64,000 nucleotides of DNA from assembly GCA_022824865.1 (NCBI GenBank), contig JAJDZD010000022.1:36115-100114 (forward strand), given 5' to 3'. Source of the stretch: Chloroflexota bacterium. Lineage in GTDB: Bacteria > Chloroflexota > UBA11872. Positions 7,051 through 12,196 of the stretch are shown here, piece after piece. The notes under the pieces are model-generated. The model was not told the DNA's origin. It was given only the letters and a program-made list of their open reading frames with translations, and made no database searches. Within the stretch, counting starts at the first letter, position 1; each line of letters begins with the position of its first letter. A program made the position numbers and the translations under genes.

Positions 7051-7950
7051 TCAGGGCGCCCGGGCCTCCATGATCCAGGCGTGGCGGATGTCGAGAGGCA
7101 TCCGCAGACCGTCGTGGACGGCGTGGCGGCGAAGGAGACGTTCGCGGTCGTAGTCGAAGCGTTCGATCCTGGGCTGGAGCCGGCCGTTCGCTTCGGTGAT
7201 CGTGAGGAACGAGGGACGGTTGTCGTTGACTGAGAGATCCGGGTCGTCCACGCGCCGGTCGATCTCCCGTCCGCTCGGGTCTCGGTAGCGGAACAGCGGC
7301 GCCGCGACCGTACCCGGGTTGGCCAGCGCCCCGTCGGCGCCCTGGCTGATGAAGGGATAGTGGGTGTGCCCGATCACGGTCAGATCCACGGCGGGATCGG
7401 CAAAGATCTCCGACAGCTCGGCGGGCCGAAGCCGCCAGTTGGTGGTCTCCGGCGTACGCAGATTGAAGTGGCCATGCATGAGGCGCAGGGAGTGGCCCCG
7501 CCAGCGCACATCCAGGATGTCGGGCAGGCACTTCACGAACTCCAGCTGGTCGGGCGTCATCTCACGGTAAGCCCCGAGTTCGGTGTCGTCGGGCGCGCCT
7601 TCGCCTGAAGGCGGCTCGGCCTTGAGGTACTCGAAGATTGCGCTGTCGTGGTTGCCGCGGGTCGTGCGCCCGGCAGCGCGGCGCATCGTCCATTCGAGCG
7701 TGAAGCAGCCGTCGATCCCGCCTTCGAATATGTCGCCGTTGACAAAGACGAGATAGGGCTCGGCCAGCTGGTCGAGCCAGCGGTCCAGGGCGTCCAGCGG
7801 CTCCTTGTAGCCATGCAGGTCGCTCACGATCACCAGGCGCTGGATTGAAGGATTGACTTCGACCTGGGCGGTCAATCTGCCAGCGGTAGGCGCGGACGCG
7901 CCCACGTCCGGGGCGCTGGCGTTGGTGCATCTAGAGAGCATCTGGGTCAT
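7051..7950 (-). CDS. metallophosphoesterase (calcineurin-like phosphoesterase)
   Basis: Carries VSDLHG, GDIFEGG, GNHD and GHTHYP motifs. Confidence 0.75.
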   Translation of the reverse strand: MTQMLSRCTNASAPDVGASAPTAGRLTAQVEVNPSIQRLVIVSDLHGYKEPLDALDRWLDQLAEPYLVFVNGDIFEGGIDGCFTLEWTMRRAAGRTTRGNHDSAIFEYLKAEPPSGEGAPDDTELGAYREMTPDQLEFVKCLPDILDVRWRGHSLRLMHGHFNLRTPETTNWRLRPAELSEIFADPAVDLTVIGHTHYPFISQGADGALANPGTVAAPLFRYRDPSGREIDRRVDDPDLSVNDNRPSFLTITEANGRLQPRIERFDYDRERLLRRHAVHDGLRMPLDIRHAWIMEARAP

Positions 7951-9487: not shown

Positions 9488-9540
9488 GGGGCTGCGGAAC
9501 GGGCGTCGAATCGCGGCGAAAACGGCGCTCTCGCGCGAAT

Positions 9541-9568
9541 AAGAGTTTTTTCCAAACGCGATTATCCC
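9541..9568. repeat. left terminal inverted repeat of the IS1595-like element
   Basis: Reverse-complement match to 11818-11845 (2 mismatches in 28). A weaker match continues about 16 bp inward. Confidence 0.55.
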
Positions 9569-9627
9569 TTCTTGACAAGTACGGCCGAAAGCCTTAAAAT
9601 GGTGGCATCAATCGAGAGGAACCGCCG

Positions 9628-10494
9628 ATGCCGCAGACGTACACCTTGCTCGACTTTATGCGCGACTATCCAGACGACGAAACCTGCCTCGACAAGATTC
9701 TTGAACTGCGCTACGGCACTGACCCGGTTTGCGAATCCTGCGAACGCGAGACGACCTATCACCGCATCAAGAAACGGCGCGGCTATGCCTGCCAATGGTG
9801 CGGGTCACACGTCTTTCCCTGCGCAGGGACACCGTTTGCGAAGTCACGAACACCGCTGACGAAGTGGTTCTATGCGATGTATCTCTTTACGACAACCCGG
9901 CATGGCGTACCTGCAAAGGAACTTGAACGGCAGCTAGGCGTGACCTACAAGACGGCTTGGCGCATGGGTCACATCATTCGAGACCTTATGTCGAATATCG
10001 ATATCGGGATGCTGGTTGGCGAAGTCGAAGTTGATGAATCCTACGTCGGCGGTCACCGCCCCGGCACAACCGGACGCGGCGCACAAGGCAAGACCATCGT
10101 GCTCGGTATGAAGCAACGCGGCGGGAACATGCGCGCGATGGTGATACCTGACGTAAAAGGCGCGACGATTGAACCGCTGATTCAACAACACGTCGCACGC
10201 GGTACAACCGTGCATACCGACGAATGGTGGGCATATCGGTACTTACACTGGCTCGGCTACGATCATCGCACGGTTCGGCACGGCAGAGGGCAGTACGTCA
10301 AAGACGGCAGTCACACGAATAGCATTGAAAACTTCTGGGCACGGCTGAAGCTATCGATTCGTGGGACGCACATTCATGTTTCCCGACAATACCTGCCGAA
10401 GTATCTGACCGAGTTTAGTTTTCGTTACAACTATCGGAACATGCCTGATCGGATGTTCGCGGTTTTGATGGCAACCTTGGCACAGCCTGTTTAA
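9628..10494 (+). CDS. IS1595-family (ISXO2-like) DDE transposase
   Basis: The N-terminal zinc ribbon (CESCERETTYHRI...CQWCG) plus an ISXO2-like DDE domain (VHTDEWWAYRY...) are typical of IS1595 transposases. Confidence 0.85.
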   Translation: MPQTYTLLDFMRDYPDDETCLDKILELRYGTDPVCESCERETTYHRIKKRRGYACQWCGSHVFPCAGTPFAKSRTPLTKWFYAMYLFTTTRHGVPAKELERQLGVTYKTAWRMGHIIRDLMSNIDIGMLVGEVEVDESYVGGHRPGTTGRGAQGKTIVLGMKQRGGNMRAMVIPDVKGATIEPLIQQHVARGTTVHTDEWWAYRYLHWLGYDHRTVRHGRGQYVKDGSHTNSIENFWARLKLSIRGTHIHVSRQYLPKYLTEFSFRYNYRNMPDRMFAVLMATLAQPV

Positions 10495-10684
10495 GCAAGG
10501 CGTCGAACAATGCTTTGTTACCGGGTTGCTTCGGTTTGGGTTTCGACTTTCTGCCTTCAGTTTTCTTCTTATTCATAAGACACCCCTATTTCTTGTGCAT
10601 AAAGCGAGTAGCCCAATTTGCACTTACATTCCGTTGCAGCATAATGCTATAATTAATCATATCATATCAATGGGAAGCTATAGC

Positions 10685-10807
10685 ATGAAAAACAATTCTC
10701 GCAAAACAGTAGAACCTCTCGACACTCAGTCATTTATGCTAATGATGGGCACATCTTTATTCGCAGTTACCTTTATGACTATTCTCGTTCTTTTTGCGGC
10801 AGGCTAA
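10685..10807 (+). CDS. small hydrophobic peptide (40 aa) in the AT-rich cargo, hypothetical
   Basis: MKNNSRKTVEPLDTQSFMLMMGTSLFAVTFMTILVLFAAG has a single TM. A sigma70-like TTGCAC-16-CATAAT sits about 50 nt upstream. GC content is about 40%. Confidence 0.2.
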   Translation: MKNNSRKTVEPLDTQSFMLMMGTSLFAVTFMTILVLFAAG

Positions 10808-10821
10808 GCAATTTACTTAAC

Positions 10822-11181
10822 TCACTTAGCCGTGTCTATGACAGACTTTACAACTGTCGATAGTATTCCTGTCAGCGCTGTAATCAGGGAAAGCATCGGC
10901 GCAACGATAAGAGCTATTAGTCCAAGTGCCTCTTGTCCGCGAGTCTTCGCAATCAGATAGCCGGTTACTACAGCACTAAATGCCGCGAAGAATAGCACCC
11001 AAACAAGAAAGGTAAATAGGACGAAAGCTTGGTTAAGATTCAATTTGCTTATTTCTGGGCCGATCATACTTCCCAGGGTAAGTGCGACAGTTACAGCTAC
11101 AAGTATCGCAATCCCAGTTGCGACAATTTTCCAAGGGATTTCTGGTAGTGGTTTAGGGTCGTCTTGAGTCTGATCGGCCAA
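10822..11181 (-). CDS. hypothetical integral membrane protein (~4 TM) in the AT-rich cargo
   Basis: 119 aa with hydrophobic helices separated by charged loops. AT-rich codon usage differs from the host. Confidence 0.4.
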   Translation of the reverse strand: MADQTQDDPKPLPEIPWKIVATGIAILVAVTVALTLGSMIGPEISKLNLNQAFVLFTFLVWVLFFAAFSAVVTGYLIAKTRGQEALGLIALIVAPMLSLITALTGILSTVVKSVIDTAK

Positions 11182-11432
11182 TTCGCAGCCTCCGTCGCTG
11201 TTTGTGCTTATACCGTACAGAATCCTAACACAACCGTTCTGGACACGGTACCGCCCGGCCAGCTAGGGTCACTGCGACTCGCCACAGTCACCCTACGCGC
11301 TAGCGCAATCGCGCGGTTTGGCGTCTGCGCTCCCCCGCGTATCGTCTAGCGCGTATTGACTTGTGGCGAGTCTGACACCTAGCCGCGCGACGGGGGAGCA
11401 CCTGTATCGCGCTTGCGATTCGGAGCGCCACT

Positions 11433-11750
11433 ATGAATCGCCGGACTGTTGCCGCTGCGGTCACCGCCCTGGCCCTTGCTGCCTGCGTCAAGGTCAGCGA
11501 CACGTCAACCGGGATCGAACACCTGCCGCCGGAGTTCAGCGTCGAAACCACGATCTATACGCAGGGCAGCGCGCGGTTGCCGCTGCCGTGCTTCGCGTCC
11601 CTGACGATTGACGCGGCAGGCGGGGAGACCATCATCAACTACGTCGAAATCACTGAACCTGCGTCCTACACGGTTCCGATCAGTGTGGACGGTCAGCTAG
11701 TCACCGAGTTCAATACGCAAGGGTGTCAGCCATGGACACTTGAACCGTAG
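11433..11750 (+). CDS. putative lipoprotein
   Basis: MNRRTVAAAVTALALAACVK is a signal peptide with a lipobox (LAAC). The protein is 105 aa. Confidence 0.45.
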   Translation: MNRRTVAAAVTALALAACVKVSDTSTGIEHLPPEFSVETTIYTQGSARLPLPCFASLTIDAAGGETIINYVEITEPASYTVPISVDGQLVTEFNTQGCQPWTLEP

Positions 11751-11817
11751 CGGTTCGGGCGGGATTGACGGCTGCGCAGGCGGCAAGATCAGCGGATTCT
11801 ATCGTACTTGTCGTCAG

Positions 11818-11845
11818 GGGATAATCGCGTTTCCAAAAAACTCTT
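11818..11845. repeat. right terminal inverted repeat of the IS1595-like element
   Basis: Reverse-complement match to 9541-9568. Confidence 0.55.
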
Positions 11846-12196
11846 GAGGCGCGGCGGGGTGCATTTTGGCGGGTCCGAGGCGCGCCGAGGATTGCGGCTG
11901 AAGACGACGAAACGGCGGGGCCACCGTGGAACGGCGCGTCCTGGCGAGGGGACGGAGGCGCGGTTCAGCGGGCGCGGCAGCGGACATTCGAGAACTCGGT
12001 TACGAAGACATCAGGCAGATTGTACACTGATGGCACACGACAGGCAAGCACCGCTCGTTTCGTGAACCGGCGAGGGATCACGAGAGCGCGGCGGGGGCTG
12101 GCCCGCACCGACACGCACATGCTCGGGTCGCCGTCCCGCTGTGAGGCGGGCAGACGATGAGCCGGGCTATTTCACCTGTTAGGGAGTGCCGCGCCT

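What the first reader, a model, noticed from the sequence alone, without database searches (positions are those of the whole stretch)
9541..11845. IS1595-family element with 44-bp inverted repeats enclosing 1.3 kb of passenger DNA
Near-perfect inverted repeats (26/28, extendable to about 37/44) lie at 9541 and 11845. They bracket 2.3 kb: the ISXO2-like transposase, then a ~40% GC segment (10500-11200) in a ~68% GC genome, then a GC-rich lipoprotein gene. No inverted repeat follows the transposase stop, so the cargo appears to lie inside the element. IS1595 elements are usually about 1 kb, so this looks like a passenger-carrying derivative. The compositional heterogeneity of the cargo suggests sequential acquisition. 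No target-site duplication was found.
Basis: seen in the sequence. Interest (0 to 1): 0.6.

Follow-up and report, generated by a model that had tools for sequence, protein, structure and literature searches.

The report
Cargo-carrying IS1595 insertion sequence, site-specific
This is a 2.3-kb mobile element of the known "transporter IS" type: an IS1595-family transposase gene with passenger genes inside its ends.

Summary
It is composite, though. The IS proper runs 9557-11829 (2273 bp) and has 27-bp inverted repeats (23/27) that begin CGCGATTATCCC. TTTCCAAA at 9549-9556 and 11830-11837 is a perfect 8-bp target-site duplication. AAGAGTTT and AAACTCTT outside it are the arms of a 24-bp palindromic target, AAGAGTTTTTTNNAAAAAACTCTT.

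Three lines of evidence support this.
- Eight further related insertions in Chloroflexota-like contigs show the same layout with 8/8 duplications, and the IS lies in either orientation relative to asymmetric flanks.
- Nineteen empty copies of the target exist. Four are orthologous to occupied sites.
- Two relatives sit in non-palindromic targets with clean 8-bp duplications.

The cargo lies inside the element. There is no third IS end, and all 13 bounded relatives with at least 63% transposase identity (about a dozen independent insertions) carry 1-3 kb of variable cargo. That cargo is often a methyltransferase-HNH fusion.

The window's cargo comprises:
- an orphan low-GC segment with a 3-TM ORF;
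- a conserved hairpin-forming 235-bp block;
- a small Ig-like lipoprotein.

Passenger-carrying IS1595 elements ("tIS") have been described since 2009, so this is a new member of a known kind. The strong site specificity is a modest novelty.

The parts
9517..9540 (.). Flank 'B' of the pre-existing target repeat (...ctctcgcgcgaat)
   Evidence: An nhmmer profile built from 22 copies of the target repeat matches window 9556-9517 at profile positions 41-80. The same flank type is seen at empty sites.
9541..9548 (.). Outer left arm, AAGAGTTT, of the 24-bp palindromic target. It is not part of the IS.
   Evidence: Empty sites read AAGAGTTT+TTTNNAAA+AAACTCTT. Relatives L062 and L005 lack this sequence yet have the same IS ends.
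9549..9556 (.). Left copy of the 8-bp target-site duplication, TTTCCAAA
   Evidence: It is identical to 11830-11837 as a direct repeat. The corresponding 8 bp is single-copy in orthologous empty sites of relatives.
9557..9583 (+). Left terminal inverted repeat of the IS proper, CGCGATTATCCCTTCTTGACAAGTACG
   Evidence: It matches the right end 23/27. The terminal CGCGATTATCCCC is conserved in all relatives, with single substitutions in a few ends.
9572..9600 (+). Sigma-70-like promoter, TTGACA-17-TAAAAT (11/12). The -35 box lies inside the left repeat, and this is the presumed transposase promoter.
   Evidence: Consensus scan. Assigning it to the transposase gene is inference.
9628..10494 (+). 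Transposase gene, 288 aa, with an N-terminal zinc ribbon and a DDE_Tnp_IS1595 domain
   Evidence: Pfam PF12762 at 7.4e-46 covering profile 1-153/153, and PF12760. NCBIfam NF033547 at 217 bits against a cutoff of 75. More than 6,000 homologues.
10415..10576 (-). Small conserved ORF convergent with the transposase gene and overlapping its 3' end. It is 53 aa, with a Lys-rich N-terminus and a GD[RK]ALF[DEQ]ALL[KT]QA motif.
   Evidence: It is present in win, L001, L003, L013, L058, L059, L061, L063 and L005, with a variant in L004. Synonymous changes occur in the part that lies outside the transposase gene. No Pfam hit.
10514..11205 (.). Window-specific low-GC (0.43) cargo segment. It holds a 40-aa ORF at 10685-10807 (+) and a 119-aa ORF at 10822-11181 (-) with three hydrophobic stretches.
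   Evidence: It shows no DNA similarity to any related element. The 119-aa ORF has no homologue among 5.8 billion proteins and no Pfam, PADLOC or NCBIfam family above threshold.
11206..11441 (+). Conserved non-coding block with a long imperfect hairpin (about 11262-11383). It lies immediately upstream of the last cargo gene.
   Evidence: It is shared by 8 distinct elements. It has an invariant 12-bp stem, GACTCGCCACAAG/CTTGTGGCGAGTC. RNAalifold predicts 50 pairs, 7 with compensatory changes. The MFE z-score is -5.6 on the + strand and -5.8 on the - strand. No Rfam match.
11433..11750 (+). Cargo gene for a 105-aa lipoprotein that is all-beta and weakly Ig-like
   Evidence: It has a lipobox (LAAC) and two conserved Cys. 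Only two close homologues exist, and the one whose locus was read, L100, is also next to an IS end. A profile search finds the domain in Big_9/He_PIG-repeat proteins. The AF2 model is all-beta but low confidence, pLDDT 57.
11803..11829 (-). Right terminal inverted repeat of the IS proper. Its reverse complement reads CGCGATTATCCCCTGACGACAAGTACG.
11830..11837 (.). Right copy of the 8-bp target-site duplication, TTTCCAAA
11838..11845 (.). Outer right arm, AAACTCTT, of the palindromic target
11846..11874 (.). Flank 'A' of the target repeat (gaggcgcggcggggtgcattttggcggg)
   Evidence: nhmmer matches window 11874-11830 at profile positions 4-48. This overlaps the other half-match by exactly the 8 duplicated positions.

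Best explanation
Window 9557-11829 is a 2273-bp transporter IS (tIS) of the IS1595 family. It is one mobile unit made of:
- a 27-bp left inverted repeat;
- a zinc-ribbon/DDE transposase gene;
- a small conserved antisense ORF;
- about 1.3 kb of passenger DNA;
- a 27-bp right inverted repeat.

It inserted by the family's usual 8-bp staggered target cleavage and duplicated TTTCCAAA.

The target was the dyad centre of a 24-bp AT-rich palindrome, AAGAGTTT-TTTCCAAA-AAACTCTT. That palindrome lies inside a conserved, asymmetric, roughly 80-bp intergenic repeat found in these high-GC genomes, which are probably Chloroflexota. This clade of elements uses the site with strong but not absolute preference, and in either orientation. 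That is why the target's palindromic arms look like an extension of the IS's own inverted repeats.

The cargo is modular. A variable low-GC set of minus-strand genes lies next to the transposase gene. In many members, a conserved hairpin-forming control region and a small secreted or membrane protein gene lie next to the right end.

What is shown: the element boundaries, the duplication, target use, cargo inside the element, and cargo variability.

What is inferred: the transposition chemistry (from family membership), symmetric recognition of the palindrome by a transposase multimer, the promoter in the left repeat, and cargo exchange by recombination between copies. Whether the window copy is still active is unknown.
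For: - **Family.** Pfam and NCBIfam hits are far above their cutoffs.
- **Ends and duplication in the window.** TTTCCAAA occurs on both sides of CGCGATTATCCC...GGGGATAATCGCG.
- **The central dinucleotide behaves as a direct repeat, not an inverted one.** Nine palindrome-site insertions have 8/8 duplications (win, L001, L003, L004, L059, L061, L063, L067, L098). L002 has 7/8. The centres are CC, AG or GG, which would all be mismatches under the inverted-repeat reading.
- **Relatives in other targets.** L062 (TSD AAGCCTGA, inside a kinase gene) and L005 (TSD ATATATTA) have the same termini and no AAGAGTTT arms.
- **Empty targets exist.** Nineteen sites in high-GC metagenome contigs carry the intact palindrome with the same asymmetric flanks. 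Another copy lies in L062.
- **Orthologous empty/occupied pairs.** L061/L073 matches on both flanks (90.5% over 1500 bp on one side). L059/L079 matches 97.3% over 867 bp. L004/L089 matches 89.5% over 1309 bp. L063/L085 matches 86% over 1494 bp, although its centre differs by one base. In the first three pairs the 8 bp is single-copy when empty and duplicated when occupied.
- **Both orientations.** The IS sits 5:5 in the two orientations relative to flanks A and B.
- **Profile evidence.** Each occupied site splits the target profile into positions 3-48 and 41-82, an 8-position overlap.
- **Cargo is inside.** There is no third end. Related elements measure 1.9-4.0 kb, and none with at least 63% transposase identity lacks cargo.
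- **Category is established.** tIS are described for the IS1595 family, which typically has an 8-bp TSD and a zinc finger.
Against: - No orthologous empty site was recovered for the window's own locus. Its boundaries therefore rest on the duplication and on comparison with relatives.
- Only one copy is present in the 64-kb window, and its inverted repeats differ at 4 of 27 positions, so it may no longer be mobile.
- L058 (6/8, with 175-bp inverted flanks) and L095 (hybrid flanks) do not fit the simple pattern. They need rearrangement or assembly error to explain them.
- L002 has one mismatch in its duplication.
- Target recognition by the transposase itself has not been tested.
- The window's cargo ORFs, apart from the lipoprotein, have no homologues, so their reality as genes is unproven.
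Confidence: 0.9

Rival explanations
1. A canonical 1-kb IS1595 element ends just after the transposase gene. The sequence at 11803-11845 is a solo inverted-repeat remnant of a separate insertion, so the 1.3 kb between them is ordinary host DNA.
For: Many IS1595-family members are about 1 kb. A distant relative, L008 (54% transposase identity), has inverted repeats only about 1.13 kb apart.
Against: - No IS-end-like sequence lies between 10494 and 11800, even allowing 2 of 13 or 8 of 25 mismatches.
- The identical 8-bp duplication flanks the whole 2273-bp unit.
- Orthologous empty sites of relatives show that the whole cargo-bearing unit is what inserted.
- Parts of the 'host DNA' (the small antisense ORF and the 235-bp block) recur inside related elements at unrelated loci.
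- The lipoprotein homologue whose locus was read (L100) also lies next to an IS end.
Confidence: 0.02
2. The full 43-44-bp repeat is the element's terminal inverted repeat, and the element makes no target duplication.
For: The repeat is continuous, and AAGAGTTTTTT is found in the window and in the close loci only next to IS ends.
Against: - The outer 24 bp exists on its own, without any IS, at 19 or more sites. Four of these are orthologous to occupied sites.
- The central NN is consistent with a direct repeat and inconsistent with an inverted repeat in 9 of 10 insertions.
- The flanks beyond the palindrome are asymmetric, and the IS lies in both orientations relative to them.
- L062 and L005 have the inner ends only, with clean 8-bp duplications.
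Confidence: 0.02
3. The structure is as in the best explanation, but the window copy is an immobile relic rather than an active element.
For: - There is a single copy in 64 kb.
- Its transposase protein cluster was recorded on a single contig in the protein search, and the contig look-up read two contigs carrying it.
- Its inverted repeats match 23/27, against 26/27 in the multi-copy L001/L002 elements.
Against: - The 288-aa ORF is intact with full-length domain coverage.
- The duplication is perfect.
- A strong promoter-like site lies in the left repeat.
Confidence: 0.3

Closest known systems
Transporter IS (tIS) of the IS1595 family (Siguier, Gagnevin & Chandler 2009; ISfinder subgroups with passenger genes, such as ISNha5 and the passenger-carrying ISNwi1/ISPna2 derivatives)
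   Same: - A single DDE_Tnp_IS1595 transposase with an N-terminal zinc ribbon.
- Short terminal inverted repeats and an 8-bp target duplication.
- Passenger genes between the transposase gene and the right end.
- Size of 2-4 kb.
- The termini CGCGATTAT resemble the ISNwi1-group end consensus (ggnnatTAT). That consensus is recalled from memory and could not be checked here.
   Different: - The hosts are uncultured, Chloroflexota-like organisms.
- The cargo consists of orphan small membrane or secreted proteins and, in relatives, methyltransferase-HNH fusions.
- A small antisense ORF is conserved across the clade.
- There is a strong preference for one palindromic target. I found no such report for this family in the two IS1595 sources read here or in the 2006 REP-targeting survey. 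ISfinder itself could not be consulted.
IS elements that target repetitive extragenic palindromes: IS1397 and ISKpn1 (IS3 family), IS621, ISPpu9, ISPpu10 and ISPa11 (IS110 family), ISRm22 (IS4 family)
   Same: - Repeated independent insertion at one fixed position of a palindromic intergenic repeat.
- Empty and occupied copies coexist (PMC1525189).
   Different: - The transposase family is different. The 2006 survey lists IS3, IS110, IS4, IS256 and IS5 as REP-targeting families, and not IS1595.
- The target here is an AT-rich 24-bp palindrome with GC-rich asymmetric flanks.
- The target is sparse: one copy in the 64-kb window.
- The insertion is symmetric about the dyad, with an 8-bp duplication, and occurs in both orientations.
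- The preference is not absolute (L062).
Canonical IS1595-family insertion sequences (about 0.7-1.2 kb)
   Same: The transposase domains, inverted repeats and 8-bp duplication.
   Different: They carry no passenger DNA. Here the transposase gene occupies only 38% of the element.

Membership tests
IS1595 family | Transposase with a DDE_Tnp_IS1595 (ISXO2-like) catalytic domain | tested here: met
   PF12762 at 156.4 bits (cutoff 27), covering profile 1-153/153. NF033547 at 217.4 bits (cutoff 75).
IS1595 family | N-terminal zinc-ribbon/zinc-finger domain (present in all groups except IS1016) | tested here: met
   PF12760 at 29.7 bits (cutoff 25.4), residues 15-60. The family feature is described in PMC8101967.
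IS1595 family | 8-bp target-site duplication | tested here: met
   TTTCCAAA at 9549-9556 and 11830-11837. 8/8 duplications in 10 further related insertions. Orthologous empty sites confirm this.
IS1595 family | Terminal inverted repeats that bound the element | tested here: met
   27-bp repeats matching 23/27 in the window. The termini are conserved across relatives.
ISNwi1 subgroup of IS1595 | End consensus ggnnatTAT and transposase clustering with ISNwi1 in ISfinder | not testable with these tools
   The ends CGCGATTAT fit the consensus as I recall it, but ISfinder is not available. The reviews that hold the table are not in the library.
Transporter IS (tIS) | Genes unrelated to transposition lie between the transposase gene and an IS end, inside the inverted repeats and the target duplication | tested here: met
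   About 1.3 kb after the transposase stop lies within the duplication-flanked unit, and there is no internal end. Whole cargo-bearing units are absent from orthologous empty sites.
REP-targeting insertion sequences (functional class) | Several independent insertions at the same position of a repeated palindromic intergenic sequence that also exists unoccupied | tested here: met
   At least 10 insertions lie at the dyad of AAGAGTTTTTTNNAAAAAACTCTT. There are 20 empty copies, and the IS occurs in both orientations. It is not shown that the repeat is a classical high-copy REP. Only one copy occurs in the 64-kb window.

The most novel reading that the evidence does not exclude
This Chloroflexota-associated clade may be a distinct tIS sub-type that works as a site-specific cargo shuttle. 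Its transposase would recognise a 24-bp palindrome in a conserved intergenic repeat. Its conserved extras would control transposition or mediate cassette-like swapping of the variable cargo. Those extras are the Lys-rich antisense micro-protein and the 190-235-nt hairpin-forming block, which may be a structured RNA with no Rfam family. The variable cargo comprises methyltransferase-HNH fusions and small membrane or zinc-ribbon proteins that may be defence or addiction modules.
Probability: 0.15. Interest if true: 0.55.

Novelty: new member of a known kind. Interest (0 to 1): 0.3.

Why it matters
Mainly, this corrects the annotation. The element is an ordinary passenger-carrying IS1595 derivative, and its true boundaries and target duplication had been masked by a palindromic target.

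Beyond that, it gives a clean natural example of strong target-site selection by an IS1595-family transposase, complete with empty and occupied orthologous sites. I did not find this reported for the family in the sources I could read. A defined 24-bp target could be useful for studying how DDE transposases with zinc-ribbon N-termini choose targets.

The variable cargo also shows how small IS-like elements move orphan genes and methyltransferase-nuclease fusions among uncultured Chloroflexota. None of this overturns current understanding.

Tried and rejected
- **Viral contig scans.** The empty palindrome gave 0 hits. The IS terminus gave 38 single hits, all chance matches without the extended end.
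- **Plasmid collection, blastn.** One weak hit, to an IS1595 transposase gene. It was uninformative.
- **Rfam.** No match on the element or on tandem target repeats.
- **Family searches on window cargo ORFs.** PADLOC found nothing. Pfam and NCBIfam found only sub-threshold hits for the 119-aa ORF.
- **Homologue search for the 119-aa membrane ORF.** None found.
- **AlphaFold model of the lipoprotein.** pLDDT was 57, too low to justify a fold search, so none was run.
- **ISfinder subgroup end consensus.** I could not verify it. The FEMS review is not held under the DOI or the PMC id I tried, and 'ISNwi1' appears only in two unrelated genome papers.
- **Orthologous empty site for the window's own locus.** None was found among the fetched loci.
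- **The conserved flanks as part of a longer element.** I rejected this because the IS lies in both orientations relative to them, and they occur without the IS.
- **The target repeat as an intrinsic terminator.** Only the 24-bp palindrome pairs, and there is no consistent T-tract, so this was not pursued.
Full report
**1. Checking the observation**

The arms are 9541-9583 and 11803-11845: 43 nt, 86% complementary. The first 28 nt match 26/28, and 100 shuffles of the window gave no such match.

Between the arms lie three things.
- A 288-aa ORF (9628-10494, +) has a full-length DDE_Tnp_IS1595 domain and an IS1595 zinc ribbon.
- A stretch at roughly 10500-11200 drops to 37-47% GC, against 66-68% in the flanks.
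- A 105-aa ORF (11433-11750, +) starts with a lipoprotein signal.

No third IS end lies inside.

**2. Where the element really ends**

Transposase relatives at 63-78% identity were fetched from a genome collection and from assemblies. Most come from Chloroflexota MAGs.

They carry almost the same terminal sequence, AAGAGTTTTTTNNAAACGCGATTATCCCC. It brackets units of 1.9-4.0 kb.

The two variable bases NN are informative. In the window they read CC at both ends on the same strand. In L001 and L004 they read AG/AG. In L003, L063, L067 and L098 they read CC/CC. In L059 and L061 they read GG/GG. They therefore match as a direct repeat and mismatch as an inverted repeat.

The layout is:

AAGAGTTT | TTTNNAAA | CGCGATTATCCCC ... 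GGGGATAATCGCG | TTTNNAAA | AAACTCTT

This is an IS with 27-bp ends, flanked by an 8-bp duplication, sitting in the middle of a 24-bp palindrome. Nine insertions have 8/8 duplications, and L002 has 7/8.

Two relatives inserted elsewhere show the same termini without the AAGAGTTT arms.
- L062 sits inside a protein-kinase gene with duplication AAGCCTGA.
- L005 has duplication ATATATTA.

In the window the IS proper is 9557-11829 (2273 bp). Its inverted repeats match 23/27, and the duplication TTTCCAAA lies at 9549-9556 and 11830-11837.

**3. The target exists on its own**

One scan of metagenome contigs for AAGAGTTTYTTNNAARAAACTCTT returned 26 loci. Nineteen sites are in high-GC contigs. All of them carry the same asymmetric flanks as the occupied sites: '...gcgccccgccgcacctc' on one side and 'acgcgcgcgaaggcgcccc...' on the other.

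Four are orthologous to occupied sites:

| Occupied | Empty | Flank match |
|---|---|---|
| L061 | L073 | Both flanks; 90.5% over 1500 bp on one side |
| L059 | L079 | 97.3% over 867 bp |
| L004 | L089 | 89.5% over 1309 bp |
| L063 | L085 | 86% over 1494 bp; centre differs by one base |

In the first three pairs the empty allele has one copy of the same central 8 bp and the occupied allele has two, one on each side of the IS.

A profile of the roughly 84-bp repeat matches every occupied site as two halves (positions 3-48 and 41-82). The 8-position overlap is the duplication. The same profile finds a further intact copy in L062.

The IS lies in both orientations relative to the asymmetric flanks, five each way. 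This rules out the flanks being part of the element.

The transposases of L062 (other target) and L067 (palindrome) are 85% identical, so the preference is strong but not absolute.

The window holds no other copy of the repeat. I found no Rfam family for it, and only the 24-bp palindrome itself folds. What the repeat does for the host is unknown.

**4. The cargo is inside, and it is modular**

All 13 bounded elements with at least 63% transposase identity carry 1-3 kb after the transposase gene. Only a distant relative, L008 (54% identity), has inverted repeats about 1.1 kb apart.

Pairwise comparison shows three parts.
- **A conserved left module.** This is the left end, the transposase gene and about 20-80 nt beyond.
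- **A variable central segment.** It is low in GC and mostly coded on the minus strand.
- **A conserved right-hand block.** In 8 distinct elements a 190-235-bp non-coding block is followed by a small plus-strand gene and the right end.

L001 and L003 come from the same genome. They share a 95%-identical backbone but differ in the central segment. L001 has a methyltransferase-HNH fusion plus a 3-TM protein. L003 has two small zinc-ribbon proteins.

N6/N4-methyltransferase-HNH fusions recur in L001, L002, L004, L061 and L067.

It is more precisely exchange of a central cassette between conserved backbone segments. Recombination between copies is my inference.

**5. The window's own cargo**

*Low-GC segment.* Segment 10514-11205 (GC 0.43) has no DNA similarity to any other element. 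Its 119-aa ORF (10822-11181, -) has three hydrophobic stretches. It has no homologue among 5.8 billion proteins and no family hit above threshold. L001 has an unrelated 117-aa ORF that also has three hydrophobic stretches at the equivalent position.

*Conserved block.* Block 11206-11441 contains an invariant 12-bp stem, GACTCGCCACAAG/CTTGTGGCGAGTC, within a long imperfect hairpin.
- RNAalifold predicts 50 pairs, 7 of them with compensatory changes, but most of those changes come from one clade.
- The window copy folds far better than shuffles on either strand, with z-scores of -5.6 and -5.8.
- There is no Rfam match.

I read it as the control region or structured leader of the last cargo gene, possibly also holding the promoter of the minus-strand cargo. 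This has not been demonstrated.

*Lipoprotein.* It has only two close homologues. The one whose locus was read, L100, sits next to a block fragment and a solo right IS end. A profile search finds the roughly 85-aa domain alone in small proteins. It also finds the domain among the repeats of giant Big_9/He_PIG/cadherin-like proteins. This agrees with an all-beta but low-confidence model. It is therefore a small Ig-like surface lipoprotein of unknown role.

**6. Other conserved features of the backbone**

A 53-aa ORF on the minus strand (10415-10576) converges on the transposase gene and overlaps its 3' end. It is conserved in at least nine elements. It has a Lys-rich N-terminus and a GD[RK]ALF[DEQ]ALL[KT]QA motif, and synonymous differences occur in the non-overlapping part. 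It has no Pfam family.

A strong sigma-70-like promoter, TTGACA-17-TAAAAT, lies at 9572-9600 with its -35 box inside the left repeat. This arrangement is common in IS elements, which I state from general knowledge. A terminator-like hairpin follows the transposase stop at 10520-10535.

**7. Mechanism**

*Shown:* one unit bounded by 27-bp inverted repeats inserted with an 8-bp duplication at the dyad of a palindromic target, with the cargo inside.

*Inferred from family knowledge:* a DDE transposase with an N-terminal zinc ribbon binds the ends and makes 8-bp staggered cuts in the target. The symmetric half-sites AAGAGTTT on either side of the staggered cut suggest recognition by a symmetric transposase complex. 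An easily deformed AT-rich centre in a GC-rich genome would also fit.

*Unknown:* whether transposition is cut-and-paste or replicative, and whether the window copy is still active.

**8. Comparison with what is known, and verdict**

Passenger-carrying IS1595 elements were described in 2009 and are called transporter IS. [quoted passage not shown] The family's 8-bp duplication and zinc finger are standard.

Insertion into palindromic intergenic repeats is well known for the IS3, IS110, IS4, IS256 and IS5 families. The 2006 survey I read does not list it for IS1595.

The finding is therefore a new member of a known kind, with corrected boundaries and a newly found duplication. Its mildly novel aspects are the strong target preference, the conserved antisense micro-ORF and the hairpin block. 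Interest is 0.3.

Noticed in passing
window 9517-9556 plus 11830-11874 (split by the IS); intact copies at e.g. L073 9207-9230, L079 1588-1611, L090 3429-3452 and 3603-3626, L087 5-28 and 224-247, L062 2979-3052, L013 5862-5885: A conserved, asymmetric, roughly 84-bp intergenic repeat with a 24-bp AT-rich palindrome (AAGAGTTTTTTNNAAAAAACTCTT) occurs in high-GC, Chloroflexota-like genomes. Sometimes two copies lie 174-219 bp apart. It has no Rfam match, and its function for the host is unknown.
   Followed up: partly
window 11206-11441; also L001 8676-8909, L003 7811-7995, L059 1626-1802, L095 1527-1729, L098 2305-2491, L058 8251-8460, L013 7674-7867: A conserved non-coding block forms a long hairpin with an invariant 12-bp stem and some compensatory changes. 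It lies upstream of different terminal cargo genes. It could be a structured leader or small RNA, or a DNA-level site. It matches no Rfam family.
   Followed up: partly
window 10415-10576 (-): A 53-aa Lys-rich ORF is antisense to the 3' end of the transposase gene. It is conserved across the clade (motif GDxALFxALLKQA) and shows synonymous substitutions. It may be an accessory or regulatory protein, and it has no known family.
   Followed up: partly
L001 6936-8288 (-), L004 6927-8162 (-), L061 7948-9323 (-), L067 7858-9288 (+): N6/N4 DNA methyltransferase fused to an HNH nuclease is the most frequent cargo of the related elements. In L061 it is split into two ORFs. It could be a single-chain restriction-modification or addiction module carried by the IS.
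   Followed up: no
L058 5777-5951 and 8794-8968: The flanks of this IS copy are 175-bp inverted repeats of each other (93%). MutS_V-domain genes lie in opposite orientation on both sides, and the 8 bp next to the ends match as an inverted repeat rather than a direct one. The contig has 4x coverage, so this may be a foldback assembly artefact or a real palindromic duplication around the IS.
   Followed up: no
L095 101 and 2355; L100 4823-5407; L013 6001-8246: Rearranged or decayed copies were seen. L095 has one end in the palindrome and the other in unrelated DNA. L100 keeps only the block fragment, the lipoprotein gene and the right end. L013 has a 5'-truncated transposase gene, with an empty-looking target 120 bp upstream.
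   Followed up: partly
L001 about 7279-7332 and 9988-10045; L092 726-778; L093 13432-13477; L087 101-155; L063 11653-11669 and 12433-12449: A second short repeat of about 50 bp is shared at 89-96% between flanks of different IS copies and unrelated metagenome contigs. It translates as ...GEGWGEGL... in spurious ORFs. These genomes seem rich in small interspersed repeats.
   Followed up: no
L003 6945-7328 (-) and L013 6585-7043 (-): Homologous small cargo proteins carry a zinc-ribbon motif (C-x-D-C-G-F) and a C-terminal transmembrane helix. They have no Pfam or PADLOC family.
   Followed up: no
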